Part shown: positions 1,768 through 23,394 of the stretch, one piece after another
Layout of the letters: every line of letters begins with the position of its first letter
Numbering within the stretch: position 1 is the stretch's first letter
Source: a virus
Taxonomy: Duplodnaviria > Caudoviricetes
Direction: 5' to 3' (one strand)
IMG/VR virus record: IMGVR_UViG_3300020045_007239
Span: 1-28,220 of that record
DNA length: 28,220 bases
The notes under the pieces: generated by a model
Told to the model about the DNA's origin: nothing
What the model saw: the letters and a program-made list of their open reading frames with translations, nothing else
Database searches by the model: none
Program-made: the position numbers and the translations under genes

Positions 1768-1989
1768 ATGAGCCGATGTAAAAGGGAAAGCAATCCTGAC
1801 CTGATATGTACCAGTTACAAAACCGCCAGCAACAGATCGACAAGACTCTTGCTGCTGGAAATTGTGGCGGAGGCGTGGATAGACGGTCATAAGAAGATTT
1901 ATGCTGAGTTAGGTCTAGACATTGAGTGTCAATGTGCCATTTGCGACAAGGCTCGCGAAGCTTTCAGTCTGAAACACAATAGGAGATAA
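1768..1989 (+). CDS. Hypothetical protein (73 aa)
   Basis: AGGAGGGG RBS before ATG 1768; CxCxxC near the C-terminus. Confidence 0.65.
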   Translation: MSRCKRESNPDLICTSYKTASNRSTRLLLLEIVAEAWIDGHKKIYAELGLDIECQCAICDKAREAFSLKHNRR

Positions 1990-2004
1990 CCCGCCACGCT
2001 TGGC
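1984..2004 (+). repeat. 21-bp junction repeat AGATAACCCGCCACGCTTGGC (second copy 2541-2561)
   Basis: Two identical copies, each at a gene end and followed shortly by AAGTTT. Confidence 0.9.
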
Positions 2005-2046
2005 AACAGGAAGTTTACACCAACAAATCAACAGGGGGAGGAAAAC

Positions 2047-2325
2047 ATGAGCTATCAAATCGGCAGCACGACATACCCCAAAGCCAGAAAGCAGCATAAT
2101 TGCATGGCGTCAGACTGGATCGTGAACTATTTGCAGGATGTGGTGGAAATGTGCGACTACTCCGAAAAGCGGGAATTGGTCAAGGCCAGACGCAACAAGT
2201 GGAAGATCCTGCCCGGACAGAAGTATGTCAGGCAAGCGATGGTATGGGAAGACAAACTGGGAACATTCAAGGCTATACCGGCAATGCACGACATCCGCAT
2301 TAAATACAGCCTGTATGAAGATTAA
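2047..2325 (+). CDS. Phage hypothetical protein (KARK.H.C motif)
   Basis: 92-aa ORF, GGGGGAGG RBS. Confidence 0.8.
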   Translation: MSYQIGSTTYPKARKQHNCMASDWIVNYLQDVVEMCDYSEKRELVKARRNKWKILPGQKYVRQAMVWEDKLGTFKAIPAMHDIRIKYSLYED

Positions 2326-2356
2326 CAAGCAAACACTAAACGGGGGAGGAAAGCAA

Positions 2357-2539
2357 ATGGTAAGAATTAAACTATGGGTTAACACAGGATTTGCCGGCGC
2401 GAAACACGAAGAAGAAATCGAAGGGCCGGATGAATGGGAAACGATGTCACCGGAAGAACGGGAGAAATGGATGGATGAAGCGGCGAGAGATTACCTGTTT
2501 GATAGGTGTGAGTTCGGGGCTGCTGTTATTCCAGATTAA
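2357..2539 (+). CDS. Small acidic phage protein (DUF7167-like)
   Basis: RBS GGGGGAGG before ATG 2357; V.TGF.GA.HEE.IE motif. Confidence 0.7.
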   Translation: MVRIKLWVNTGFAGAKHEEEIEGPDEWETMSPEEREKWMDEAARDYLFDRCEFGAAVIPD

Positions 2540-2610
2540 TAGATAACCCGCCACGCTTGGCCCCGGCAAGTTTGCCAGAAACATGAAGCGATAACAGGAG
2601 GTAGGCAATC

Positions 2611-2817
2611 ATGACAAACAAGCAAATTAAATCAGACCTAATCCGTATAGCGGCTGTATTGGTGCAAGGTAATTACATCCCATCCGATTTAGTGGATGAC
2701 TACCCGCAAAAAACGTACTCGGCGGGGAAGGTAGCAAAAATGATGGAACAGGCTCACGAGAAGTCGAGGGCACTTGCAATTCAGGTAAGAAATCTGGCTG
2801 ATTCGATAGTGCCATAA
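2611..2817 (+). CDS. Hypothetical protein
   Basis: AGGAGGT RBS, 68 aa. Confidence 0.75.
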   Translation: MTNKQIKSDLIRIAAVLVQGNYIPSDLVDDYPQKTYSAGKVAKMMEQAHEKSRALAIQVRNLADSIVP

Positions 2818-2848
2818 CGAATTGGCAACCATTAAACGGGGAGGGAAC

Positions 2849-3277
2849 ATGAGCGAAGAATTAGGGTTTACAGAAGGTGATATCTGCAATCGTAAAGGAT
2901 GTAAGGGAGTAATTGGCACGCATCCAGCAAAAAACTGTTCATGCCATATCAACCCACCGTGTTCAGCGTGTACCGCCCCTCGCGGGTTCTGCCCTGTATG
3001 TGGATGGGAGGAAGCGGATGACAAAATAGTGAATGACTACGTTGTCAACCAAGATCCCAAAACAGGCGTGTATAGAACATGGACTCCGCGACCGCTGGAC
3101 TCAAAAAAGATCGACTGGCACTCATTTAGTCATACCGGCGCGAGCATGATTCGACGGGGGGTGTATCCAGAGGGAGCAACGAGGGGTGAGGTTGAAGCGG
3201 TGGTCAACGGTACATTCGGAGGCCGGTTCAATTCTTTCGGCAACGGCAAATTTGAGTATGTGGCATACACGGACTAG
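2849..3277 (+). CDS. Cys-rich putative Zn-binding phage protein
   Basis: GGGGAGGG RBS before ATG 2849; CSCHINPPCSAC and CPVC motifs. Confidence 0.8.
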   Translation: MSEELGFTEGDICNRKGCKGVIGTHPAKNCSCHINPPCSACTAPRGFCPVCGWEEADDKIVNDYVVNQDPKTGVYRTWTPRPLDSKKIDWHSFSHTGASMIRRGVYPEGATRGEVEAVVNGTFGGRFNSFGNGKFEYVAYTD

Positions 3278-3307
3278 ACCGGCAAACATTAAACGGGGAG
3301 GAAACGA

Positions 3308-3529
3308 ATGGAAATAAGAGCTGAAGTATGTGGATGGTTCAAACGGGTGAACGCTCCCGATGATTGCGTCAAGCGTGGACATATCGACCTTGCCTTTTTG
3401 CCGCCGTTGAACGTGCTGACTCCACCATTTCAGCGCTTGCCAACTGTCGAGGATCTGAATGCAACAACTGTCAGGCTTTACCATGTCGGGACCACGGAAG
3501 ATAATCGCCCTTGGTTTCGCCATGAATAG
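3308..3529 (+). CDS. Hypothetical protein
   Basis: GGGGAGG RBS, 73 aa. Confidence 0.65.
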   Translation: MEIRAEVCGWFKRVNAPDDCVKRGHIDLAFLPPLNVLTPPFQRLPTVEDLNATTVRLYHVGTTEDNRPWFRHE

Positions 3530-3674
3530 GCCATCAACCGACATCTACGACACGGTAGAAATAGACAACGCACTGCTGGCGTATGAGTTCGGGATACTGC
3601 CGGAATTGGTGCGGTGCGAAGAGTGTACGATGGCGCATAAGTGCGTAGAGTGTTTGCAAAATGAGGATGTATGA
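3522..3674 (+). CDS. Hypothetical protein with two CxxC motifs
   Basis: Overlaps the end of the previous gene; 50 aa. Confidence 0.5.
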   Translation: MNRPSTDIYDTVEIDNALLAYEFGILPELVRCEECTMAHKCVECLQNEDV

Positions 3675-3710
3675 TAACCATGCCACTCGCTAAACTAAAC
3701 AGGAGGCAAC

Positions 3711-3908
3711 ATGCTAACACATCAAAAAAGGGTAGTGACAGAAAAGGCTGAATTAGATGAAAAGCTGGAAAAGCTCAATGTCTTTAAACAGGGGCAACTG
3801 TATGCTTCATTGTCTGACGCAGAGCGAGAGAGGCTTATTAGGCAGTCTCTTTACATGGCTGGGTATTCAACGGTTCTTGGCGAGCGAATAGCTGCATTTA
3901 CAGAGTGA
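3711..3908 (+). CDS. crAss001_48-like small coiled-coil phage protein
   Basis: RV..EK.EL.EKL.KL..F...Q...M..Y..VL.ERI pattern; AGGAGG RBS. Confidence 0.8.
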   Translation: MLTHQKRVVTEKAELDEKLEKLNVFKQGQLYASLSDAERERLIRQSLYMAGYSTVLGERIAAFTE

Positions 3909-3941
3909 TATAACCGGCCACATTCAATAAAAGGAGGCAAC

Positions 3942-4079
3942 ATGCTAAAAAGACTAGCAACATTCAAAGAGTGGAAACAGGCAGCAATCGTCAACACAGC
4001 AATGGAAATGACAGACCAGTACCGCTATGTCGGGATTGTCGGAGCATTAATCTGGGCCATGGACGAGATGGAGGGGTAA
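3942..4079 (+). CDS. Hypothetical protein (45 aa, not in ORF track)
   Basis: AGGAGG RBS; TAATG coupling to the next gene. Confidence 0.6.
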   Translation: MLKRLATFKEWKQAAIVNTAMEMTDQYRYVGIVGALIWAMDEMEG

Positions 4080-4288
4080 TGACAGACGAACGAATGAAGC
4101 AGTTAATGGAACAGGCGGGATTCCACCAGAGCCACAGCATTGCACAGCTCATTTTGCAGGTCGAGAATGAGACGGCGCAAGAATGCCGAAAAGTTGCGTT
4201 AGAAATGTATCGAAGCGATGACTACGCGGCTTCTGTTGCCGGAGCGATTGCTATTAGAATCAAGGTAAAATTCGGGTTAGAAATATGA
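4079..4288 (+). CDS. Hypothetical protein
   Basis: GGAGGGG RBS before ATG 4079. Confidence 0.65.
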   Translation: MTDERMKQLMEQAGFHQSHSIAQLILQVENETAQECRKVALEMYRSDDYAASVAGAIAIRIKVKFGLEI

Positions 4289-4443: not shown

Positions 4444-4607
4444 GCACTGATTGGCATGGAGACGTCATTCAGGAACACTGGCAAGAATTGGTATGGCAGG
4501 CACACTGGTTTCTATCGGCCATGCCGGATGAGGATCTATTTTGGAATGTCGCAATATCTGGTCCGTTTGGTCTGGCAGTACAGGTTGTCGAAAGGAAAAG
4601 AAAATGA
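4440..4607 (+). CDS. Hypothetical protein (55 aa)
   Basis: ATGA overlaps at both ends. Confidence 0.55.
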   Translation: MSTDWHGDVIQEHWQELVWQAHWFLSAMPDEDLFWNVAISGPFGLAVQVVERKRK

Positions 4608-4807
4608 GTTGCGTTCGAGTGGAGCACGGATTTCTTTGTGGACCAGACGAATTCGTTGACCTCGCTCCATTTGGGGCACACGTCTGGATGAGCTATCACC
4701 ATTATCATGGACCGGCATTTTACCGATCTGAGGCGGCAATCACACCGATTTGCGCACCGTCAAAGAAGACTTGGGATGCATTCGAGAAATGGCAAAAGAG
4801 CAGATAA
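4604..4807 (+). CDS. Hypothetical protein, paralogue of 22353-22571
   Basis: 41 of 64 aligned residues identical to the second copy, no gaps. Confidence 0.85.
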   Translation: MSCVRVEHGFLCGPDEFVDLAPFGAHVWMSYHHYHGPAFYRSEAAITPICAPSKKTWDAFEKWQKSR

Positions 4808-4851
4808 CGGCTTGAGTTGAGCCGTACAACGGCTCGAACGTTTTGTTATGC
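4802..4851 (-). other. attC-like recombination site 1
   Basis: Minus strand GCATAAC-AAAAC-GTTCGAGCCG-TTGTA-CGGCTCAAC-TCAAGCC-GTTATCT: R''/L''/L'/R' boxes with an extra base in L''. Confidence 0.85.
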
Positions 4852-4873
4852 GTTCGGGCGGATTGGAGAGAGT

Positions 4874-5062
4874 ATGCACATCAGAAAACAGGTAGCGACC
4901 GACGCGGTAGTACAATGGTACGGTAGGAATGCTCAAGATATTTCCGAATTTGAAAAAGCTAAAGCAGGGATCGCCAAAGGGCTTCGTGGACAGGCGGAAA
5001 ATGTCGAAGCACTTACATTTGATGAGTTTATTGAGATAAGGCGGCTGAATTCACTCGCCTAA
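4874..5062 (+). CDS. Cassette-like hypothetical protein (62 aa)
   Basis: GGAG RBS just after site 1; stop TAA lies in the core of site 2. Confidence 0.7.
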   Translation: MHIRKQVATDAVVQWYGRNAQDISEFEKAKAGIAKGLRGQAENVEALTFDEFIEIRRLNSLA

Positions 5063-5107
5063 CGATTTTTAGATATGCGGTTTATCCGCATGAGCGGCTG
5101 GTTAGTC
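5057..5107 (-). other. attC-like site 2 (imperfect)
   Basis: GCCTAAC...ATGCGG-TTTAT-CCGCAT...GTTAGTC; L boxes poorly paired. Confidence 0.6.
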
Positions 5108-5122
5108 ACAAGGAGACACGCT

Positions 5123-5272
5123 ATGGGAAGATGGGTTTGTTGGCAATGTTTCAGTTCTGCTCGCTGTGAAGTCAGGGCATTTAAGGAGAAACCTACAACA
5201 CCTTGCCCTGACCATTTCCGTATTCCGTATGTGTTTATAGCAACACCAGAACACCAAGAGGGGAGTAGATAA
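5123..5272 (+). CDS. Cassette-like hypothetical protein (49 aa, Cys-rich)
   Basis: AAGGAG RBS just after site 2; stop lies in the core of site 3. Confidence 0.65.
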   Translation: MGRWVCWQCFSSARCEVRAFKEKPTTPCPDHFRIPYVFIATPEHQEGSR

Positions 5273-5328
5273 CGCACAAGCCCAGCGGCTGCGGTTTGTG
5301 CCGTCCGTCTGCTGCGACTTGGTTAGGC
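5267..5328 (-). other. attC-like site 3
   Basis: Minus strand GCCTAAC (perfect RYYYAAC)...GC-rich imperfect palindrome...GTTATCT, 62 bp. Confidence 0.75.
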
Positions 5329-5353
5329 GCTACGGTGCCAGAAAGGGAAATTC

Positions 5354-5626
5354 ATGAATAAGCCAGCAACAAGTATTGATTTCACCTGTGAGTGGTTCGC
5401 CAAGGCAGCAGATGCCGCTAATAAGCAAAATCGTAGAGATAGTGCTGCTCTCTGGAATGACGGACTTTCCCATCTTAAATATCAGCAGCGCAGGATTAAC
5501 GAATTGGAAGATGCTTTACGGTGCGTCACTTCCGCAATCCGCGATATACGGCACGATTTGGGAGCAAATTTTCCGGCACTCTCCGAAGCGGCCATTTTAG
5601 CAGAGGCTATGCTAGTTAAGGGATAA
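5354..5626 (+). CDS. Cassette-like hypothetical protein (90 aa, helical)
   Basis: Starts 25 bp after site 3; ends in GGATAA|C. Confidence 0.75.
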   Translation: MNKPATSIDFTCEWFAKAADAANKQNRRDSAALWNDGLSHLKYQQRRINELEDALRCVTSAIRDIRHDLGANFPALSEAAILAEAMLVKG

Positions 5627-5686
5627 CGCCAAGCACGGCCATTACAAAGAGCAGCGTAACGGCAGGATACACATACAATCTCACAT

Positions 5687-5722
5687 ACCCCGCCCCTGTC
5701 ATCGGCAGGGGCAACGAAAGGA
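5687..5722 (+). repeat. 36-bp direct repeat with hairpin and RBS (second copy 6325-6360)
   Basis: ACCCCGCCCCTGTCATCGGCAGGGGCAACGAAAGGA occurs twice, identical. Confidence 0.95.
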
Positions 5723-5728
5723 CGGACA

Positions 5729-5905
5729 ATGGATTACATGGAATTTAAAGAAGAACTCGACGATTGCAGGCTGGACACGATGGAAGAAGATATTGACAAG
5801 CTCTGTATAAAGCGGCTTGAACACTCCTGCCAGGAATTTGGGAACGAGGGTAAAACGGCGCTCAAACTTCTGGACGTTGTAAAAGACCTGCTAGAACTTC
5901 GGTGA
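5729..5905 (+). CDS. Hypothetical protein (58 aa, not in ORF track)
   Basis: AAAGGA RBS within the repeat; MDYMEFKEELDDC...LLELR. Confidence 0.65.
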   Translation: MDYMEFKEELDDCRLDTMEEDIDKLCIKRLEHSCQEFGNEGKTALKLLDVVKDLLELR

Positions 5906-5907
5906 GA

Positions 5908-5970
5908 TTATAACGGCTGCGCCTTGAACGGCGTAGCGCAGCGGAGTCCGCTTCCGAGGCGTGGTTATCA
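5908..5970 (-). other. attC-like site 4
   Basis: TTATAAC...GCCTTGAACGG..CCGCTTCCGAGGC...GTTATCA, 63-bp imperfect hairpin. Confidence 0.72.
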
Positions 5971-6040
5971 CACATACAATTTCACATACACCGCCCATGC
6001 CGAGGGGTATAAAGGGTTTAATTAAGAAAGGAGCGACAGC

Positions 6041-6316
6041 ATGGAAACATTGAATCACGGCGGAACAGTCGGACGCGTCGAAGCACCTGCCGCTGAACGG
6101 ATCGCGCAGGAGTTGAAATACAAATTGCGTGACGCTGATGCCGACAAGATAGAAGCATTTTGGAGTGTGGATATACAGCGCAATCAGGCCGGTGAACCAG
6201 TGCCGACAGTAACAATTGTCGCTGACAACACTGGAACGGAAGAGCAGCGCGAGGCTATCAGAGATCACTTGTGGGGTACCGCTGATATTCTCCGCGAAAT
6301 TTACAGAGTAATATAA
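6041..6316 (+). CDS. Hypothetical protein
   Basis: AAGGAG RBS, 91 aa; ends in ATATAA|C. Confidence 0.75.
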   Translation: METLNHGGTVGRVEAPAAERIAQELKYKLRDADADKIEAFWSVDIQRNQAGEPVPTVTIVADNTGTEEQREAIRDHLWGTADILREIYRVI

Positions 6317-6367
6317 CATCATTCACCCCGCCCCTGTCATCGGCAGGGGCAACGAAAGGAGGAAGGA

Positions 6368-6688
6368 ATGACACCAATACAAAAGGCAACGAAATATTTA
6401 AAAGAAACTCCGCAGTATGTCATGGACGAAAACGACACAGCCGGTTATGCATCCCGCTTGGTGCGCGATTTAATGATTGAAATAAAATGCCTCAAAATTC
6501 AGGTTTGTGACCGTGGCAATAATTACGAAAAGCAGAAAAAAGAAAACGACTTTATGCGGTATCTCATTACGCAAATCTTGAATGACTTACCAGCAAAACG
6601 TGATTGGCTTGACCCTAGCATTGAAACAGGGATGAAGGAAATGTGCAACATAGGCCAACTTAATATTAACCGGAATAAGGCAGAGTAA
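6368..6688 (+). CDS. Hypothetical protein
   Basis: AGGAGG RBS, 106 aa; last gene of the operon. Confidence 0.75.
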   Translation: MTPIQKATKYLKETPQYVMDENDTAGYASRLVRDLMIEIKCLKIQVCDRGNNYEKQKKENDFMRYLITQILNDLPAKRDWLDPSIETGMKEMCNIGQLNINRNKAE

Positions 6689-6718
6689 TCTAGCTGATCC
6701 ACATTCCAACAACACCAT

Positions 6719-6747
6719 GCCCCTGCCACCACGTCAGGGGCTTTTTT
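6719..6747 (+). terminator. Intrinsic terminator closing the small-gene operon
   Basis: GCCCCTG-9 nt-CAGGGGC followed by T6. Confidence 0.8.
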
Positions 6748-6982
6748 ATGCCCAAAACTCACATACAGACCCGCTAAATATCGTGGAGTATACACACATT
6801 TTGGCCGATGTTTTGGCCGATCTTTTTGATCAAAATCACCTGCCATACTCAAAACTTCCCTTACAATTCCGCCAGACTCCACAACGTGTATCCACGATAT
6901 TTACCAATCACTAACATATATGAAGAATTGCGTAATAATATCAAGGGCTTGCATGAACGCACATATTTTGCACATACAGCAC

Positions 6983-7015
6983 AAAAAAAGGACTCAGCAT
7001 CATAGCTAAGTCCTT
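6983..7015 (-). terminator. Intrinsic terminator downstream of the tRNA 3' fragment
   Basis: Minus strand AAGGACTTAGC-TATGAT-GCTGAGTCCTT-TTTTT. Confidence 0.75.
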
Positions 7016-7023
7016 GATTTTGC

Positions 7024-7075
7024 TGGTGGAGCTGAACAGGATCGAACTGTCGACCTCTTGACTGCCAGTCAAGCG
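7024..7075 (-). other. attP: attP core: 3' half of tRNA-Ala(GGC)
   Basis: CGCTTGACTGGCAGTCAAGAGGTCGACAGTTCGATCCTGTTCAGCTCCACCA contains an anticodon arm (GGC), T arm, acceptor strand and CCA; no D arm; IHF-like WATCAAN4TTR near 6939 (+) and 7007-7019 (-); close to the integrase. Confidence 0.9.
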
Positions 7076-7246
7076 GATAAAAAGCTAAGTATTTGAATAT
7101 GTTGCGTAAGTAGCTAGAATCACTAACGTTTATTTTCTGCTAAACGTTGTGGAAATACCTGTTTTTTCAGGCTTCACGTTATTTAGTTGAAATCGCTGGC
7201 GAAACCGTTACACATACAATGCACATACAAGCGATGATGATCCATG

Positions 7247-7701: not shown

Positions 7702-8859
7702 CTATAGTGCCAGCTTGTCTCGATACTCGGCCAGTGTTGCCTGCTTCTTGCTGGGTTCCAGATGGCCGTAACGCTTGTAAGTTATTTTCACGTCTGCATG
7801 GTCCGCCAAACTGCTAACTATGTACAGAGGCACGTCATCGCCTAGGAGAATCGACACAAATGAATGACGCAGCTTGTGGGGAGTTCCGGTTAACCCAGTT
7901 TTCTTAATAGCCGTCTTCCACGCTGTTCTCATGTCGTGCATAGGCTTGTCTATCTCCAGTGCAGGGTCATTGGCTGGTGACGGGAATAGCCACGTTCTAT
8001 AGCCATACTTCAAAGCGTATTTGTTGATATCGTTTCGTAATACTGGCGAAATACCGGTAACGAAATTACGCCCCGATTTCATCACCTCACCCGGCATGGA
8101 TACGGTGCAGTCATCGGCAATATACTCAAACCGCATACCATATACATTGCCCGGACGCAAGCCGGTTTCTATTTGGATACGGATTGCCAGTGCCAACTGT
8201 TCGCACGATGCGGCAATCAGCACCCTCACCTCATCGGCGGTGAAATAATCATCCTTGTAATTGTCAATCGCTGGTTTCGGTACCTTCAGCATATTGTCTT
8301 TTGCTTTATGCAGTCGGTCATAGTCGTTGGCATCAAGGTACATTGTGACGAGCACAAACATCCGTTTCACTGTACCAATCAATCCGGCAATGGTGCGGGC
8401 AGAGAGTCCATCTTCCTCCAGCGATTTGGTGAATTCCAGCAGTCGTGTAGGCTTGACATCAATCAACTTTTCTTTGTCACCAAACTCCCGGCTAAGAGTT
8501 GCCAGCATGTATTGATAATACTTACGGGTCTTATCCTTCATTTTGGCACTGTCAAAAGCCTCTTTGCCGTCCTTCCAGGTCAGCATAACCTCCTGCTTCG
8601 GGAGGGGAGTACCGTTGTGTTTGGCCCTCTGGCACTCGGAAAGGTACAGCTCAGCTTCTTTTTTCGTAGGAAACGATTTATCGATCCTTTCTCCATTTAT
8701 CTGGCCGGTCGCATACCACGGCCCGGACAGTTTCAGCGCTTTGCCGCATTTCGGGCAGTTTTGCGTTGTTGAGTAGCCGTTTTTATCACTAGATGCTGAT
8801 TTCAGCTCTGTGATGTAGCGACATTTCCCGCCGCATGTTCCCCGCTTGACCGCTCTCAT
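7702..8859 (-). CDS. int: Phage tyrosine integrase with N-terminal Zn-ribbon-like segment
   Basis: TGLR, K, HKLRH, ADH and RY catalytic motifs; GGAGGT RBS favours start at 8859 rather than 8919. Confidence 0.93.
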   Translation of the reverse strand: MRAVKRGTCGGKCRYITELKSASSDKNGYSTTQNCPKCGKALKLSGPWYATGQINGERIDKSFPTKKEAELYLSECQRAKHNGTPLPKQEVMLTWKDGKEAFDSAKMKDKTRKYYQYMLATLSREFGDKEKLIDVKPTRLLEFTKSLEEDGLSARTIAGLIGTVKRMFVLVTMYLDANDYDRLHKAKDNMLKVPKPAIDNYKDDYFTADEVRVLIAASCEQLALAIRIQIETGLRPGNVYGMRFEYIADDCTVSMPGEVMKSGRNFVTGISPVLRNDINKYALKYGYRTWLFPSPANDPALEIDKPMHDMRTAWKTAIKKTGLTGTPHKLRHSFVSILLGDDVPLYIVSSLADHADVKITYKRYGHLEPSKKQATLAEYRDKLAL

Positions 8860-8983
8860 TTCGGCACCTCCGGTTTGATTATCTGCAGCCGGACATCTTT
8901 GCCGGTTGTCTCGCACCATGATTTAATCCATGCCTTGTCAGAATCCCTTTCGACAACTTTGCCGCAATAAGGGCATCGGTATT

Positions 8984-11306: not shown

Positions 11307-12119
11307 ATGAGCAAAAAACAAAAAGATCAGCAGGTAATTAAAAGCTACAAGGGTTTTGACAAAAACATGCAGTGCAGGGGCTTCCAATTTAAGGAAGGCG
11401 AAACATACAAGCATGAAGGGGCAGTAGAAGCGTGTGCATCTGGCTTCCATTCTTGCGAAAATCCGCTTGATGTACTGAATTATTATGATCTTTGCGACAG
11501 CCGTTTTGCCAGTGTTACGGTCGGCGGAGAGATTGGCCGTCACAGCGGTGACTCAAAAATAGCTTCTGCCATTATCACCATTGATGCGGAAATCAAGCTA
11601 CCTGAATTCATAAAAGCTGCTGTGAACTGGCTAATGGATGCGTGTAAAGGTGATGATTCCAGCCAGCTCGCAGCATCAGGGCATTCCAGCAAGCTCGCAG
11701 CATCAGGGCATTCCAGCAAGCTCGCAGCATCAGGGCATTACAGCCAGCTCGCAGCATCAGGGGATTACAGCCAGCTCGCAGCATCAGGGCATTCCAGCAA
11801 ACTCGCAGCATCAGGGCATTCCAGCCAGCTCGCAGCATCAGGGGATTACAGCCAGCTCGCAGCATCAGGGCATTCCAGCCAGCTCGCAGCATCAGGGCAT
11901 TCCAGCCAGCTCGCAGCATCAGGGCATTCCAGCGTTGCCGCATGCGTTGGCACAAAGGGGCAAGTCAAAGCTGGTCCAAACGGAGCACTCGTATTGACTC
12001 GGTGGGTAGAGAATGAAAAGCGATACAGGGTGTCGGTAGCATATACGGGCGAAAACGGAATAAAGCCGGATGTTTGGTACACTCTGGACGATAATGGCTT
12101 ATTTATAGAGGTGTCATAG
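11307..12119 (+). CDS. DUF7666-like phage protein with 9-aa tandem repeats
   Basis: YKGFD..MQCRGFQF..G...C.SGFH.CENPLDV N-terminus and GENGIKPD.WY.L C-terminus; GGAGG RBS at start 11307. Confidence 0.85.
   Translation: MSKKQKDQQVIKSYKGFDKNMQCRGFQFKEGETYKHEGAVEACASGFHSCENPLDVLNYYDLCDSRFASVTVGGEIGRHSGDSKIASAIITIDAEIKLPEFIKAAVNWLMDACKGDDSSQLAASGHSSKLAASGHSSKLAASGHYSQLAASGDYSQLAASGHSSKLAASGHSSQLAASGDYSQLAASGHSSQLAASGHSSQLAASGHSSVAACVGTKGQVKAGPNGALVLTRWVENEKRYRVSVAYTGENGIKPDVWYTLDDNGLFIEVS
11656..11933 (+). repeat. 27-bp tandem repeat, about 10.3 copies, in frame ([HD][SY]S[QK]LAASG)
   Basis: Directly visible. Confidence 0.97.
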
Positions 12120-17058: not shown

Positions 17059-17964
17059 ATGGATTACTCAATCGCTTACGAAGATCACGCTATCCAGCTC
17101 CAATGTTACAGGCCAGCAGTCACCGGGAAACTGACCACGCTGACACTGCCGCCACAAGCGGGACATAGCGAAGTCATTGCGAACTGGCCAGCACCGGGGC
17201 AGAACCTCATGGAGACAATTTGTGCCAACACGGACGGCGGCGTCTACATGGTGGCGTGGAAGTCCTGCACTCACGAGCGCCGAAACGAGTCATACGTGGA
17301 TCTGGTCGAGCAGGTCAGCACGGCTATAATGGCAACAGGTGATTTCCCTGTGCGGCTGGTAGGTCTCTGCCAGGGTGGGACGCTGGCAACCATCTATGCT
17401 GCGTTGTATCCGTCTGATGTAGCGCATCTCGTAGTTGCCGGAGCGCCGATTGACGTAAGCCTTGGTGATAGTGTGCTGAAGCAGGCGCAGGAGACTCCAT
17501 TGTGGATGTATAAGATGATTGTCGCTATGAATGGCGGGATTGTATCAGGACACTGGTTGGGGTCGATGTGGAAGTCTGGGAACTGGCGCACGCATTACGT
17601 TGACCGCTTCACCTGTCCCGACGACCGGACCGAAGCGTTTTATGCGTGGTACGATGATACCCGTTGTCTGGCAGGCGGCTGGTATCTTGAACTGATAGAG
17701 CAACTGTTCCTCAATAACCTGCTGATTCAGAACAAGTTTATGGTGGGCGATAAAGTAGTTGATCTTCGCAATATCGCATGTCATGTTGACCTGATTGCAG
17801 GGGATCGTGACGATATCACCCCACACGAGCAGTTGTTCGCGCTATGTCAGCATGTGCCACAAGCCAAATGCCACATCGTGCCAGGCGGTCATATCGGTTT
17901 GTTTATGGGCGCTGAGTCCCAGCCTACATGGGGAAAAGTGTGTCAACTGCCTAAACGTTGTTGA
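17059..17964 (+). CDS. Alpha/beta hydrolase of the PHA synthase/intracellular PHB depolymerase (DUF3141-like) group
   Basis: PPQAGH, GLCQGG, AGAPID, AG.RDDIT, PGGHIGLFMG give a Cys-Asp-His triad. Confidence 0.8.
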   Translation: MDYSIAYEDHAIQLQCYRPAVTGKLTTLTLPPQAGHSEVIANWPAPGQNLMETICANTDGGVYMVAWKSCTHERRNESYVDLVEQVSTAIMATGDFPVRLVGLCQGGTLATIYAALYPSDVAHLVVAGAPIDVSLGDSVLKQAQETPLWMYKMIVAMNGGIVSGHWLGSMWKSGNWRTHYVDRFTCPDDRTEAFYAWYDDTRCLAGGWYLELIEQLFLNNLLIQNKFMVGDKVVDLRNIACHVDLIAGDRDDITPHEQLFALCQHVPQAKCHIVPGGHIGLFMGAESQPTWGKVCQLPKRC

Positions 17965-18134: not shown

Positions 18135-19037
18135 ATGAGTATAAAAATTGACAAAGAATTTAGAGACATGATTCCTCCATTGTCTCCCGCCGAATTTGAC
18201 CTGCTGGAGTCTTCAATATTGGTTGAAGGTTGCCGTGATTCGTTGGTCGTATGGGACGGCACACTGATTGACGGGCACAACCGCCACGCTATCTGCACAA
18301 AACACGGCATTGAATTTCAGACAGTGGCCAGGGACTTTGTTGATCGCGATGAAGCACTAAACTGGATTGATTCAAATCAGCTAGGCAGGCGCAATGCAAC
18401 ACCTGACCAAATGAGTTTAATACGAGGCAGGCTGTACAATCGCATGAAAAAACAAGGGGTTAGGTCTGATTTAACTTTAGGTCAAATTGACCCTAAGTTA
18501 CCTTGTTCTAATCTAAATACCGCTGACTTGTTATCTGCAAAGCTTGGTGTTTCGCCGTCTACAATTAAGCGGGATGGCGCGTCCGCCGCCTTAATTGACC
18601 AACACCCAAAAGAGGCGCAAGCAATCATTAACGGTGCAAAGAAAAAATCAGAAGTACTGAAAGAGATTAACCCTCCAGTGCCGAAACCGGACCCGCCGCC
18701 CTTGCCGGACATTTCAGAAGTTGATTCAGCGCCAGAATCTGAGATGGTAACCATATCCAAAGAACAATTCGATGAGATGCAGGAGATGATTGAATCGTCA
18801 CTGGCCGAAGAGCAGGCGCTTGCTAACATGCTGGACGCACAACCAGACGACCAGCTAGCTGTTGCCACGGAGCAAATTAAGCAGCTGTCAGAACAAGTAC
18901 GCATACTGAATTGCAGTTTAGCCGGCGCAAACAACCAATGTAATGAATTGAAACGGCTGTTAAAGGCAAGAGACCGGCAGATTGCCAAGCTGGAAAAAGA
19001 AAACGATAAGCTGAGGATGGAGGCTTTGCCATTATGA
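18135..19037 (+). CDS. ParB/Srx-like N-terminal domain protein with HTH and coiled-coil tail
   Basis: IPPLS..E...LE.SI..EG, LIDGHNR, NQLGRRN, GVSPSTIKRD. Confidence 0.85.
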   Translation: MSIKIDKEFRDMIPPLSPAEFDLLESSILVEGCRDSLVVWDGTLIDGHNRHAICTKHGIEFQTVARDFVDRDEALNWIDSNQLGRRNATPDQMSLIRGRLYNRMKKQGVRSDLTLGQIDPKLPCSNLNTADLLSAKLGVSPSTIKRDGASAALIDQHPKEAQAIINGAKKKSEVLKEINPPVPKPDPPPLPDISEVDSAPESEMVTISKEQFDEMQEMIESSLAEEQALANMLDAQPDDQLAVATEQIKQLSEQVRILNCSLAGANNQCNELKRLLKARDRQIAKLEKENDKLRMEALPL

Positions 19038-21661
19038 CGCTATTCGATGAAGAGCCCAATGATTATAGTTCTGGTACATTTCCGACTCTGCGGGAGTTTC
19101 AGGTTACTGCACATGAAGCGCTGCGACAAGGGGATAGAGACGGACACCGATGTCAGTTGGTGATGGCTCCAACAGGTGCAGGGAAGTGCTTGGGTTTTGG
19201 CACCCCCGTTATCATGGTGGATGGCAGTATTAAAACGGTTGAATCCGTAGTTGTTGGCGATGTGCTTATGGGGCCAGACGGCAAGGGCCGGAACGTACTG
19301 AGTACCACAAAAGGCCAAGATAATTTGTACAAAATCACTCCAAAAAAGGGTGATCCGTATATCGTGAACAGCGTACATCTTTTGAGTCTGAAAATGGTCT
19401 GCGGAAGCGATGGCATAAACATGTCAAGCGGAAAACATATTAACAAGGATTACGAAAATCCAATCTTTGTTGAAGCTCAAGACCTATTTAATAGCAACCA
19501 GACCGCAAAACATTGCCTGAAAGGTTGGCGACCATCCGCCGTAGATTTTGAAAATGAAGACGATTACCACATGATTCCACCGTATATTCTGGGTTTATGG
19601 TTAGGTGACGGCACGAGTTTGCAGCCAACAATAACAAAGCCGGACGGGCCTGTTGTCGATGCTTGGAAGCAATACGCTAAAAAAATAGATTGTGATGTAA
19701 GCATGATACCAAATGGGTCGTCTGGTTGCCCTTCTTGGAGGATAACTAATCGCGGCAGAGATAATGACGGAAATGGGCCAGGGAAGGGCGAATTTCATTC
19801 TATGCTCCTTATTCTCGATCTTCTTGGTAATAAGCATATCCCTAAAGATTATATAATGACGACCAAAGAAGCCAGGCTTGAACTTTTAGCCGGCTTATTA
19901 GATACGGATGGACATATGTCGAATAGCGGGTTTGATTTTGTCCAGAAGAATAAACAAATAGCTGAATCAGTCGCATTTATATGCCGGTCATTAGGATTAG
20001 CGGTAAATATTAAACAATGCAAAAAAGGGATTGCTTCGAGTGGTTTTTCTGGCTTGTACTGGCGGTTAAATATTTCTGGCGATTGCTCAATCATTCCTTG
20101 TCGTGACCCAAAAAAACAAGCAGGCCCACGAATACAAATCAAGAACCATCTTGTAACTGGCATATCTATTAAACCTGCTGGATTCGGCGACTATTATGGT
20201 TTTGAAATTGACGGAGATAGACAATTTTTATTAGGAGATTGGCAAGTAACCCACAATACCGTACTGGCACTGAATATTATCCAACAGGCTCTTATTAAGG
20301 GCAAGCGGTGCATGTTTGTATGCGACCGAACCGCACTCATAAACCAGACTTCTGATGTTGCGGACATGTTGGGATTATCACGGCATGGGATCATTCAGGC
20401 AGGACATTGGCGGACGAATCTAAAGCTACCCTTCCAAATTGCCAGCATTCAAACGCTCATGCGCCGGCAATGGCCGGAGATGGATGTAATTGTATGCGAT
20501 GAAGCCCATACACTCTACAAGACAGCTATTAACCATTTTCAGAATACTACAGCAAGGGTCATTGGATTGAGTGCAACGCCCTTCAGTCCGGGACTTGGGC
20601 AGGTTTACACGAACCTGATTAATAGTACCACGATGCACGCTTTGACGGATTCTGGAATTTTGGTACCGATGCGGATCTTCTCTTGTCACAAGATGGATAT
20701 GACAGGGGCCGAAACTTCAGGAGGGGAATGGACGGAAAAAGCTGCAGGCGAAAGAGCGTTACAAATCAAGGGGGACGTGGTTTCAGATTGGGCTAAATAT
20801 GCTCTTGACCGCAAAACAATTGGTTTTTTCCCCGATATCGCCACAGCAGAACAATACACGGCGGCGTTTAATTTAGCCGGATACCGGGCCGAAACGTTCA
20901 CGTCACACACCGATGACAACGAGAGGGCAGAATTGTTAGCGGAGTACAGAAAACCGCACAGCTCTATTCGGCTGCTGCTCAGTTGCGAGTGCCTAGCAAA
21001 AGGGTTTGACGTGCCAGACATAGAGGCCGGAATTGATGCACGCCCGTTTCGCAAGTCGCTTTCAAGCGTCATTCAGATGTGGGGTAGAATCTTACGCAGT
21101 CACCCCGGCAAGGAAGATGCTTACCTGCTCGATTTTTCCGGGAACATCGTCAGGTTTTTGGATGATTTTACAGAGATATTTTACAACGGCCTTGATGCTC
21201 TTGATATGGGCGAAAAACTGGATAAGACAATCCGGCGTGAAGAAGGCAAAGAACCGTCAGCATGTCCAAAATGCGGAGTAAGCCCTTGTGGTAAGCGGTG
21301 CATGGCTTGTGGATATGAGCGCCCATCGAAGCAGAGCACAGTGGAAGTCACTGCGGGAGTAATGACGGAAATAGTGCTAGGTGGCAAGAAATTAGCTGAT
21401 GACGCCCGGCATTTATACGAACAGCTTTGTTCATATCATCGTTACAACGGCGGAAGTCCTGACAAAGCACCGGGGCGAGTCTGGTTTCAATATCAGGAGA
21501 TAACCGGACAGAAACCGCCGTCAACTTGGAAATTTGAGTCTACCCCTGATGTCCGGGTTACAAAAAACGTTATCGGTAAAATCAAATCACTAAAAATTGC
21601 TTGGCGGGCGGTGGCCAGAAAACAATCAGCAAGAAGCGCGTCAGCCAGTGCGACGGCATGA
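19034..21661 (+). CDS. SF2 DExH helicase (phage, RadD-like with C-terminal Zn fingers) containing an intein
   Basis: APTGAGK/T, DEAH, SATP, GFDVP, QMWGRILR, CPKC..C..C..C. Confidence 0.93.
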   Translation: MTLFDEEPNDYSSGTFPTLREFQVTAHEALRQGDRDGHRCQLVMAPTGAGKCLGFGTPVIMVDGSIKTVESVVVGDVLMGPDGKGRNVLSTTKGQDNLYKITPKKGDPYIVNSVHLLSLKMVCGSDGINMSSGKHINKDYENPIFVEAQDLFNSNQTAKHCLKGWRPSAVDFENEDDYHMIPPYILGLWLGDGTSLQPTITKPDGPVVDAWKQYAKKIDCDVSMIPNGSSGCPSWRITNRGRDNDGNGPGKGEFHSMLLILDLLGNKHIPKDYIMTTKEARLELLAGLLDTDGHMSNSGFDFVQKNKQIAESVAFICRSLGLAVNIKQCKKGIASSGFSGLYWRLNISGDCSIIPCRDPKKQAGPRIQIKNHLVTGISIKPAGFGDYYGFEIDGDRQFLLGDWQVTHNTVLALNIIQQALIKGKRCMFVCDRTALINQTSDVADMLGLSRHGIIQAGHWRTNLKLPFQIASIQTLMRRQWPEMDVIVCDEAHTLYKTAINHFQNTTARVIGLSATPFSPGLGQVYTNLINSTTMHALTDSGILVPMRIFSCHKMDMTGAETSGGEWTEKAAGERALQIKGDVVSDWAKYALDRKTIGFFPDIATAEQYTAAFNLAGYRAETFTSHTDDNERAELLAEYRKPHSSIRLLLSCECLAKGFDVPDIEAGIDARPFRKSLSSVIQMWGRILRSHPGKEDAYLLDFSGNIVRFLDDFTEIFYNGLDALDMGEKLDKTIRREEGKEPSACPKCGVSPCGKRCMACGYERPSKQSTVEVTAGVMTEIVLGGKKLADDARHLYEQLCSYHRYNGGSPDKAPGRVWFQYQEITGQKPPSTWKFESTPDVRVTKNVIGKIKSLKIAWRAVARKQSARSASASATA
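19187..20257 (+). mobile_element. Intein (357 aa) with LAGLIDADG homing endonuclease
   Basis: Begins CLGFGT, block B N..H, LGLWLGDG and LAGLLDTDG motifs, ends VTHN followed by Thr; splits Walker A. Confidence 0.95.
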
Positions 21662-22352: not shown

Positions 22353-22571
22353 ATGAGTTGCATTAGAATTGAACACGGCTATATTTGCGGGCCGGATAGC
22401 GTTGTTGATTTGTCATCATACGGCGCGAAAATCTGGATGGAGTGGCATCACTATTTAGGTCCTACGTTTTTCCGGTCGGTCAACCGGATAACGCCGATCG
22501 TCACGCCGTCACGCAAAACATGGGCGGCATTTGAGAAATGGCAAGGAGAACAAAACAAGGAGTCGGTATGA
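22353..22571 (+). CDS. Hypothetical protein, paralogue of 4604-4807
   Basis: About 64% identity over 64 aa. Confidence 0.85.
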   Translation: MSCIRIEHGYICGPDSVVDLSSYGAKIWMEWHHYLGPTFFRSVNRITPIVTPSRKTWAAFEKWQGEQNKESV

Positions 22572-22882: not shown

Positions 22883-22914
22883 TCGTTTGACCTGATTGCC
22901 CAGTCAAATTAGCG

Positions 22915-23160
22915 TTAGCGGGTGAAATGGATGGGAGGCATCCCGCGATTCGCCCTGTCCATGTCCGTCAAACATCCCCCGCAAACACGGAAATGTTCGC
23001 CTATAAATTGGTCACTACATCGAGGACATGTGATTGACTCTACATAAACTCGTGGGCGCAAACCAAAGGCCAGAGAGCCGCAAGCATTACATCTCTGAGT
23101 TGACAGTATGTGATCGCCGTACTCTGTTGTTTTGCAGTTTGTACATGTGTATTTATACAT
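22915..23160 (-). CDS. Zn-finger protein (four CxxC)
   Basis: CTNC, CNAC, CPRC, CGGC; GAGG RBS. Confidence 0.7.
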   Translation of the reverse strand: MYKYTCTNCKTTEYGDHILSTQRCNACGSLAFGLRPRVYVESITCPRCSDQFIGEHFRVCGGCLTDMDRANRGMPPIHFTR

Positions 23161-23178
23161 AAAATCCTCGCTAATCCG

Positions 23179-23394
23179 TTATCTTGCTCCCCGTCGATCC
23201 CGTTGAAACTCTTTGGTATCAAGCGCCTGCTCGATGTACGCAGCAAGCGGAAATTGAATAGCGACGCCTGTTCTGGCTCGTGCTATCGTGGTCCGGCTGA
23301 CTCCCGACACGGTTGCAAGCGCTTCATTCGTTGCGCCTGCATTCCGCATTCTATCGGAGAGTTGCGGGATGGTGCGTTTCTTATATGTCGCCAT
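23179..23394 (-). CDS. Small XRE-like HTH protein
   Basis: NEALATVSGVSRTTIARAR. Confidence 0.75.
   Translation of the reverse strand: MATYKKRTIPQLSDRMRNAGATNEALATVSGVSRTTIARARTGVAIQFPLAAYIEQALDTKEFQRDRRGAR

What the first reader, a model, noticed from the sequence alone, without database searches (positions are those of the whole stretch)
4802..5627. Reverse-oriented attC cassette array in a phage that lacks an integron integrase
Seen: three consecutive 50-62 bp imperfect hairpins bounded by TAAC...GTTA, each separating single promoterless genes. Site 1 read on the minus strand (GCATAAC AAAAC GTTCGAGCCG..CGGCTCAAC TCAAGCC GTTATCT) closely parallels the aadA attC as I recall it (GTCTAAC AATTC GTTCAAGCCG..CGGCTTAAC TCAAGC GTTAGAT), including the extra L'' base. 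The sites therefore point opposite to their genes, unlike classical cassettes. With crossover at TAA|C, each unit is attC+RBS+gene+TAA. This predicts a final junction with a core but no hairpin, which is what 5621-5627 (GGATAA|C) shows. Inference: three cassettes are inserted between 4807 and 5627, mobilised in trans by a host IntI or another recombinase, so that phages exchange phage-type genes as inverted cassettes.
Basis: partly seen in the sequence, partly recalled or inferred. Interest (0 to 1): 0.9.

Follow-up and report, generated by a model that had tools for sequence, protein, structure and literature searches.

The report
Backward integron cassettes in a phage
A temperate phage carries small accessory genes separated by the DNA hairpins that bacterial integrons use to swap gene cassettes, but with the genes facing backwards; this layout dominates among the phage sites sampled, and the cassettes are likely moved by an integrase borrowed from the host.

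Summary
Confirmed and extended. The three hairpins are attC-type sites, and there is a fourth at 5908-5970. Two covariance models built without window DNA rank exactly these four first, all on the minus strand, opposite their genes. The site-1 hairpin recurs in 16 distinct contexts elsewhere. It stays with the downstream leader and changes neighbours at the left TAA|C. With one search pattern, de-replicated cassettes were 24 reverse, 7 classical, 11 unclear in viruses, versus 5, 36, 20 in bacteria. This partial genome has no IntI; 14 of 25 candidate host genomes do, as does one related provirus. Published phage PH101, whose sites IntI1 recombines, has the same reverse layout, which the paper's text does not note. 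Against: no empty-site relative of this phage was found, its cassette ends match poorly (4-5 nt), and recombination was not tested. Phage attC clusters are known (Qi 2023), and this scan reported reverse arrays on other DNA before. Verdict: new variant of a known kind.

The parts
4604..4807 (+). Gene upstream of the array (67 aa, phrog_7990); its TAA stop plus the next C is the left junction
   Evidence: paralog at 22353-22571 has no hairpin
4802..4851 (-). attC site 1 (top strand on minus; extrahelical G on the + strand); predicted crossover 4807|4808
   Evidence: 42.8 bits R1, 57.0 bits R2; family seen in 16 distinct contexts elsewhere
4874..5062 (+). Cargo gene A (62 aa) of unit 4808-5062; no relative found
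5057..5107 (-). attC site 2; predicted crossover 5062|5063
   Evidence: 28.9 and 39.2 bits; 86% match in L202, beside a true intI
5123..5272 (+). Cargo gene B (49 aa from the RBS-led ATG; an in-frame ATG at 5075 inside site 2 would give 65 aa) of unit 5063-5272
   Evidence: no PHROG family
5267..5328 (-). attC site 3; predicted crossover 5272|5273
   Evidence: 12.5 and 26.7 bits; nearest look-alike lies in the reverse array L220
5354..5626 (+). Cargo gene C (90 aa) of unit 5273-5626; no sequence relative found
   Evidence: nearest feature clusters are unnamed viral proteins at 0.91, a lead only
5621..5627 (+). Junction with the TAA|C core and no hairpin
   Evidence: no model hit; no look-alike among 3159 TAAC-anchored stretches
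5729..5905 (+). Gene E (58 aa) between two TAAC junctions, without a recognisable upstream hairpin
   Evidence: 13.2 and 31.1 bits; look-alikes in L215 and L220
6041..6316 (+). Cargo gene D (91 aa) of unit 5914-6316; two 71%-identical homologs sit in other phages with no attC or TAAC at their ends
6311..6317 (+). Last TAA|C junction, no hairpin
7024..7075 (-). Context: likely attP core, the 3' part of tRNA-Ala(GGC); points to the host group
   Evidence: 100% over 52 nt in 25 of 301 genomes searched; tRNA-Ala(GGC) in 4 of 4 loci checked
7702..8919 (-). Context: ordinary phage tyrosine integrase, not IntI
   Evidence: phrog_1, E 2e-44; TIGR02249 19.6 bits against a cut-off of 265

Best explanation
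The region is an array of four attC-type sites on the minus strand whose genes read on the plus strand, and each unit (hairpin, ribosome-binding leader, gene, TAA) is likely a cassette that an integron integrase supplied in trans inserts and excises at TAA|C. Shown: the sites, their strand, the absence of intI from this contig, the unit boundary in relatives, and the excess of this layout among the viral sites sampled. Inferred: the gene-coding strand is the recombinogenic bottom strand, so IntI would cut in the AAC formed by a TAA stop plus C. An incoming cassette would then land at the end of a gene, rebuild its stop codon, bring its own RBS and be read from the phage operon promoter. The enzyme would come from the host, or sometimes from a co-infecting phage that has intI. 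If the operon runs with replication (not determined), the bottom strand would also lie on the lagging-strand template, which favours recombination (PMC5371416). The window's own units have poorly matched ends, so they are probably aged or chimeric and may recombine less well than those of relatives.
For: Model strand: the four best hits in the window are the four sites, all minus. Boundary: among 14 de-duplicated relatives plus the window, column conservation is 0.3-0.6 from -30 to -2 left of TAAC and continues through the hairpin into the leader; 15 distinct left flanks in 16 contexts. L015/L049 and L213/L218 share site 1 and a 79-aa gene, then differ directly after the gene's TAA|C. L012 and L220 carry site 1 plus a phrog_3451 gene between different neighbours. 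Cassette-end boxes complement for 6-13 nt in 33 of 50 reverse units. Orientation: viral 24 reverse, 7 classical, 11 unclear; bacterial 5, 36, 20 (Fisher p 2e-8); by attC family 14 to 5 against 1 to 15 (p 9e-5). A provirus has a true intI (335 bits) next to a reverse array with a site-2-type hairpin, and portal and head genes beyond it. 14 of 25 candidate hosts have IntI over the cut-off. PH101: three sites on +, all 14 annotated genes in the stretch on minus; two of the sites were recombined by IntI1 with the expected junction (PMC9892861).
Against: No relative of this phage with an empty or reordered array was found (run X1 has no spanning piece). The window's cassette-end boxes complement for only 4-5 nt, against 6 or more in 13 of 14 relatives of site 1. 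Sites 1 and 2 (50, 51 nt) are shorter than the 57-141 bp range in PMC5027507. Site 1 lacks the second extrahelical T, and sites 3 and 4 have C in place of the usual G. Constrained folding favours the + strand in only 2 of 4 sites. No attC hit lies within about 1.5 kb of 14 candidate-host intI genes, with the narrow model R1. No attI was recognised in the window. The survey rests on one aadA-like pattern and a simple ORF rule, and covers 11 of 64 parts of the bacterial collection.
Confidence: 0.8

Rival explanations
1. The hairpin-plus-RBS modules descend from attC sites but now act as conserved gene-boundary linkers, shuffled by homologous or microhomology recombination without IntI.
For: The window's ends are mismatched. 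Near-identical site-1 bodies precede unrelated genes, which homologous exchange at a shared linker could also give. The phage encodes a YqaJ-type exonuclease and an SSB. 0 of 10 near-complete phage records has intI over the cut-off.
Against: Sharing stops at TAA|C on the left, the IntI cut site, and not at scattered points. End-box complementarity is kept in 33 of 50 units. Helices show two-sided changes (17 of 22 pairs; the alignment was fitted to the model, so this leans in favour). PH101 sites still recombine with IntI1.
Confidence: 0.13
2. These are classical cassettes: each hairpin belongs to the gene upstream of it and the crossover is at the right-hand G|TT.
For: attC sites are nearly palindromic, stops fall in TAAC in both layouts, and end-box complementarity cannot tell the two apart. 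Phage TJE1 has the classical layout, as do 7 of 42 de-replicated viral units.
Against: Plus-strand scores are below 9 bits for all four sites, against 26.7-57.0 on minus with R2. The hairpin stays linked to the downstream leader and not to the upstream gene. One gene is followed by different hairpins.
Confidence: 0.04
3. The hairpins are RNA elements (attenuators or processing sites) or chance structures between small genes.
For: Folding z-scores are weak, and the structures lie on the transcribed strand.
Against: There is no T-run after the stems. The R and L boxes, spacers and bulges fit attC models trained on other DNA. No Rfam family matches the region.
Confidence: 0.03

Closest known systems
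CALINs in phage genomes (Qi et al. 2023, PMC9892861; parts 1-4 of 7 and supplement part 1 of 2 read, figures not seen)
   Same: A cluster of attC sites with small genes and no intI, in a phage. The PH101 cluster has the same reverse layout when its record is checked.
   Different: The text calls the TJE1 and PH101 cassettes 'oriented in the same direction', the typical bacterial structure, and does not describe genes opposite their attC. It reports no phage-wide orientation bias and no sharing of one attC-leader frame among unrelated genes.
Classical integron cassettes and attC sites (Nivina et al. 2016, PMC5027507, introduction part 1 and passages read; Cury et al. 2016, PMC4889954, passages read)
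   Same: R and L boxes, unpaired spacers, extrahelical bases, the AAC cut site and tight packing of one gene per unit.
   Different: Here the gene is on the bottom strand and downstream of its own attC. Top-strand recombination inverts a whole cassette but keeps the gene-to-attC relation, so it does not give this layout. 'Inverted-integrase' integrons differ in intI orientation, not in the cassette.
attG insertion and SALINs (Loot et al., bioRxiv 10.1101/2022.09.11.507474, passages read)
   Same: IntI inserts cassettes at GWT-type genomic sites without attI and can excise them; this would explain a first insertion at a TAAC gene end.
   Different: Shown for bacterial chromosomes; here the target is a phage operon and the units stack into an array.

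Membership tests
attC site | Paired R boxes with the AAC/GTT core | tested here: met
   All four sites
attC site | L boxes with an extrahelical base in L'' of the bottom strand, usually G | tested here: met
   G in sites 1 and 2, C in sites 3 and 4, all on the + strand, read from the model alignments
attC site | Second extrahelical base a conserved T, 6 bp from the first | tested here: inconclusive
   Present in sites 2-4 (sites 3 and 4 have one further bulge), absent in site 1 (criterion)
attC site | Unpaired spacers of about 5-6 nt and length 57-141 bp | tested here: inconclusive
   Spacers 5/7, 5/8, 6/6, 5/8; lengths 50, 51, 62, 63. A 50-nt TJE1 site was recombined by IntI1
attC site | Covariance-model hit with strand preference | tested here: met
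   Own models R1 and R2, not the IntegronFinder model
attC site | Recombined by IntI as a folded bottom strand | not testable with these tools
   Analogy to PH101 only
CALIN | Two or more attC sites on one strand, under 4 kb apart, no intI nearby | tested here: met
   Four sites in 1.2 kb; the contig's integrase scores 19.6 of 265 bits; the genome is partial
Classical gene cassette | Gene on the top strand, upstream of its own attC | tested here: not met
   Genes are on the bottom strand, and the hairpin is linked to the downstream leader
Classical gene cassette | The two ends of a cassette are complementary in the circle | tested here: inconclusive
   4-5 nt in the window; 6-13 nt in 33 of 50 reverse units elsewhere
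Complete integron | intI with the integron-specific domain | tested here: not met
   met only in provirus G049
Complete integron | attI site | tested here: inconclusive
   One spacing pattern taken from the L202 end junction gave 2 matches (2.4 expected), neither in the array
Complete integron | Cassette promoter Pc | not tested
   No promoter scan was run

The most novel reading that the evidence does not exclude
Phages run their own mirror-image cassette pool and make new cassettes from ordinary phage genes. A fixed frame (end box, attC hairpin, RBS leader) is closed around a resident gene and then traded between phages by host IntI. The site-1 frame with both ends conserved surrounds unrelated genes, and gene D is a cassette here but a plain gene in two other phages. 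That would give a tractable system for the open question of how integron cassettes are made.
Probability: 0.3. Interest if true: 0.88.

Novelty: new variant of a known kind. Interest (0 to 1): 0.68.

Why it matters
Integrons are seen as bacterial devices, lately as stores of anti-phage genes (search listings). These data suggest that phages use the same recombination chemistry for their own accessory genes. Cargo in relatives includes DNA methyltransferases, a Mom-like modifier and a Lar-like restriction-alleviation protein, which are likely counter-defence genes. The reverse layout predicts a site-specific route to phage mosaicism, with insertions at stop codons. It would also be a pool partly cut off from host integrons, since such a cassette at a host attI would face away from Pc. 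The same frame around unrelated genes, and one gene seen with and without a frame, make cassette genesis testable by comparative genomics. The orientation of a gene relative to its attC is easy to overlook, as PH101 shows.

Tried and rejected
Rfam: one weak match outside the region. BLAST of site 1 against plasmids gave only chance hits, and the region had no match among GenBank phages. Related-locus scans of viral contigs: gene 4604-4807 gave two short hits; genes 5354-5626 and 6368-6688 gave none; a site-4 pattern gave none. Genes A and C found only themselves. Atlas searches gave no usable family. The representative search for gene B never returned, so gene B's relatives are unknown beyond PHROGs, Pfam and NCBIfam. 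Sequencing runs: one small-share holder, no RNA holder listed. Its contigs cover site 1 with foreign DNA before 4803 and 6380-6669 at 99%, but show no joint and nothing spanning the array. Free-energy tests do not separate the strands reliably. Two cruder orientation counts (38 reverse, 12 classical, 12 unclear of 62; viral 44, 10, 5 of 59 and bacterial 13, 76, 29 of 118) were replaced by the cassette-defined, de-replicated count. That count could define units for only 45 of 62 viral and 69 of 134 bacterial sites; four zero-length artefacts were counted as unclear and one mixed cluster as viral. The phage's own integrase as the cassette enzyme was judged unlikely because it lacks the IntI profile and has its own att site; this was not tested. 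Literature searches found no paper describing reverse-oriented cassettes in phages. The library lacks most subscription journals, figures are not held, and Qi's Dryad annotation file and the bioRxiv supplements could not be seen; these may show the orientation.

Full report
Setting. The window is a whole 28,220-base viral record. It holds a tyrosine integrase at 7702-8919, a CI/Cro-like pair, recombination and replication genes and many small ORFs. None of the 63 ORFs scanned is convincingly a structural gene, so the genome is partial. The integrase scores 19.6 bits on the IntI model, whose cut-off is 265. Next to it, 7024-7075 matches the 3' part of a tRNA-Ala(GGC) at 100% in 25 of 301 genomes sampled from the class of a MAG titled Desulfuromonadales. 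This is most likely attP and suggests the host group; other classes were not searched.

The observation. Their folding energies alone are unremarkable. I collected aadA-like attC sites from bacterial genomes with one pattern and built model R1 from 41 classical ones. Over the whole window its four best hits are 4802-4851, 5057-5107, 5908-5970 and 5267-5328, all on the minus strand, at 42.8, 28.9, 13.2 and 12.5 bits. Model R2, from 47 matches in 19 other loci, gives 57.0, 39.2, 31.1 and 26.7 bits, with 13.6 for the next hit. R2 includes look-alikes of the window's sites from other phages and inherits its strand from R1, so it confirms family likeness more than strand. The fourth site is new; the array runs to 6317. 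The junction at 5621-5627 has a core and no hit.

Which gene owns which hairpin. Site 1 recurs almost unchanged in 16 distinct contexts with 15 distinct left flanks, in viral contigs, metagenomes and bacterial assemblies. One of these is a prophage in a candidate host. Conservation ends just left of TAAC and runs on through the hairpin into the leader, and the genes that follow are mostly unrelated. L015/L049 and L213/L218 share the site and a 79-aa gene and then differ directly after that gene's TAA|C. L012 and L220 carry the site with a phrog_3451 gene between different neighbours. L220 also holds look-alikes of sites 3 and 4 in one array. In 33 of 50 such units the two ends complement for 6-13 nt.

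How general it is. The same pattern gave 66 viral loci and 133 bacterial loci from 11 of 64 parts of the collection. I defined each cassette by its complementary ends (possible for 45 of 62 viral and 69 of 134 bacterial sites) and de-replicated. Viral units were 24 reverse, 7 classical and 11 unclear; bacterial units were 5, 36 and 20. By attC family the split was 14 to 5 against 1 to 15. This covers one attC type and uses a simple ORF rule. PHROG families matched 12 of 32 reverse cargo proteins and 3 of 38 bacterial classical ones; genes lying in phages are expected to match PHROGs more often, so this is modest evidence.

The enzyme. Of 50 viral records searched (of 64 at hand), one has intI over the cut-off, and none of the 10 near-complete records does. 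That one, provirus G049, has intI (335 bits) beside a three-unit reverse array with a site-2-type hairpin and 10-nt matched ends, with portal and head genes beyond. Its last junction resembles an attI core as I recall the layout; this was not tested. Among the 25 candidate hosts, 14 have IntI over the cut-off, though R1 found no attC within about 1.5 kb of 14 of those genes. In print, Qi et al. 2023 (PMC9892861) showed that IntI1 recombines bottom strands of attC sites from phages TJE1 and PH101. Checking the records, TJE1 is classical. PH101 has its three sites on + and all 14 annotated genes in that stretch on minus; two copies share the hairpin and leader and differ left of TAAC. Reverse phage sites are thus proven IntI1 substrates, though the paper's text does not note the inversion.

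Mechanism. IntI cuts the AAC of the folded bottom strand (PMC5027507). Here the bottom strand is the coding strand and the AAC is a TAA stop plus C. A cassette would insert at a gene end, rebuild the stop, supply its own RBS and be read from the operon promoter. A first insertion needs no attI, since IntI uses genomic GWT sites (bioRxiv 10.1101/2022.09.11.507474, passages). If the operon runs with replication, the bottom strand is on the lagging template, which raises recombination (PMC5371416, passages). These steps are inferred.

Evidence against. No relative of this phage with an empty or reordered array turned up. The window's own ends complement for only 4-5 nt. The end of gene A fits site 3's box for 8 nt, better than its own, which suggests chimeric or aged units. 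Sites 1 and 2 are short, site 1 lacks the second bulged T, and constrained folding favours + in only 2 of 4 sites. No attI was recognised. Shuffling by homologous recombination at attC-derived linkers remains possible.

Wider array and genesis. TAAC lies at or just after the stop in 12 of 19 genes between 1768 and 6688, against 6 of 49 elsewhere (p 6e-5, and 0.002 without the four hairpin sites). The operon may therefore be a larger, decayed array. Gene D has two 71%-identical homologs with no attC or TAAC at their ends. With the fixed frame around unrelated genes, this fits capture of ordinary phage genes, but loss of the frame in those two phages is not excluded.

Novelty. attC clusters in phages are known. 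Ten literature searches found no description of reverse-oriented phage cassettes; the library is incomplete and I could not see figures. Earlier notes of this scan report the same layout in other phages; I used them as leads only. Other papers seen: PMC4889954, PMC8876359, PMC8352920 and PMC13323075 as passages; the anti-phage cassette preprints as listings only. Verdict: a real, reverse-oriented attC array; new variant of a known kind; interest 0.68.

Noticed in passing
window 1768-4100: Six more gene ends carry TAAC followed by a 20-55 nt RBS linker without a hairpin (1986, 2325, 2546, 2817, 3677, 3913). Two share a 42-nt repeat (1975-2016, 2532-2573) and several share a TAAAC-G-rich RBS linker. 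Possibly a decayed part of the array.
   Followed up: partly
window 3667-3684 and 5958-5975: An 18-nt, 89% inverted repeat joins the TAAC junction at 3677 to the right end of site 4, on both sides of the core. Unexplained.
   Followed up: no
window 5669-5722, 5970-6010, 6311-6360, 6717-6766, 6960-7230: CACATAC occurs 8 times on the + strand, all between 5670 and 7228. Some copies flank the likely attP, as integrase arm sites would, and some follow the last junctions together with a repeated GC hairpin.
   Followed up: no
window 4829-4860 and relatives L003, L012, L045: The leader after site 1 holds an inverted copy of the L'' box (perfect over 10 bp in some relatives), so an alternative hairpin could compete with the attC fold or cover the RBS.
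   Followed up: no
L202 / L227 (G049): A provirus with a complete mirror-image integron: reverse array, attI-like last junction repeated upstream of intI, and a true intI beside portal and head genes.
   Followed up: partly
L228 (KR534323 75919-77987): The published PH101 attC cluster, validated with IntI1, is reverse-oriented relative to its annotated genes.
   Followed up: yes
window 5075-5077 and L213: An in-frame ATG lies inside site 2, 13 nt after gene A's stop; in L213 a gene appears to start inside the loop of a long hairpin.
   Followed up: no
window 19034-21661: Helicase with a Hint plus LAGLIDADG insertion, likely an intein with a homing endonuclease.
   Followed up: no
window 11602-11979: A 27-nt tandem repeat inside ORF 11307-12119.
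   Followed up: no
window 17059-17964: An alpha/beta hydrolase with PHB-depolymerase-like hits in a phage.
   Followed up: no
window 22905-23185: Two minus-strand genes end in TAAC around a short RBS linker, a possible hairpin-less unit; L215 has a homolog of the neighbouring gene near a site-1-type array.
   Followed up: no
L239-L246: Many IntI-model hits in candidate hosts lie in open frames of 410-506 aa, longer than usual IntI, with no R1 attC hit nearby.
   Followed up: no
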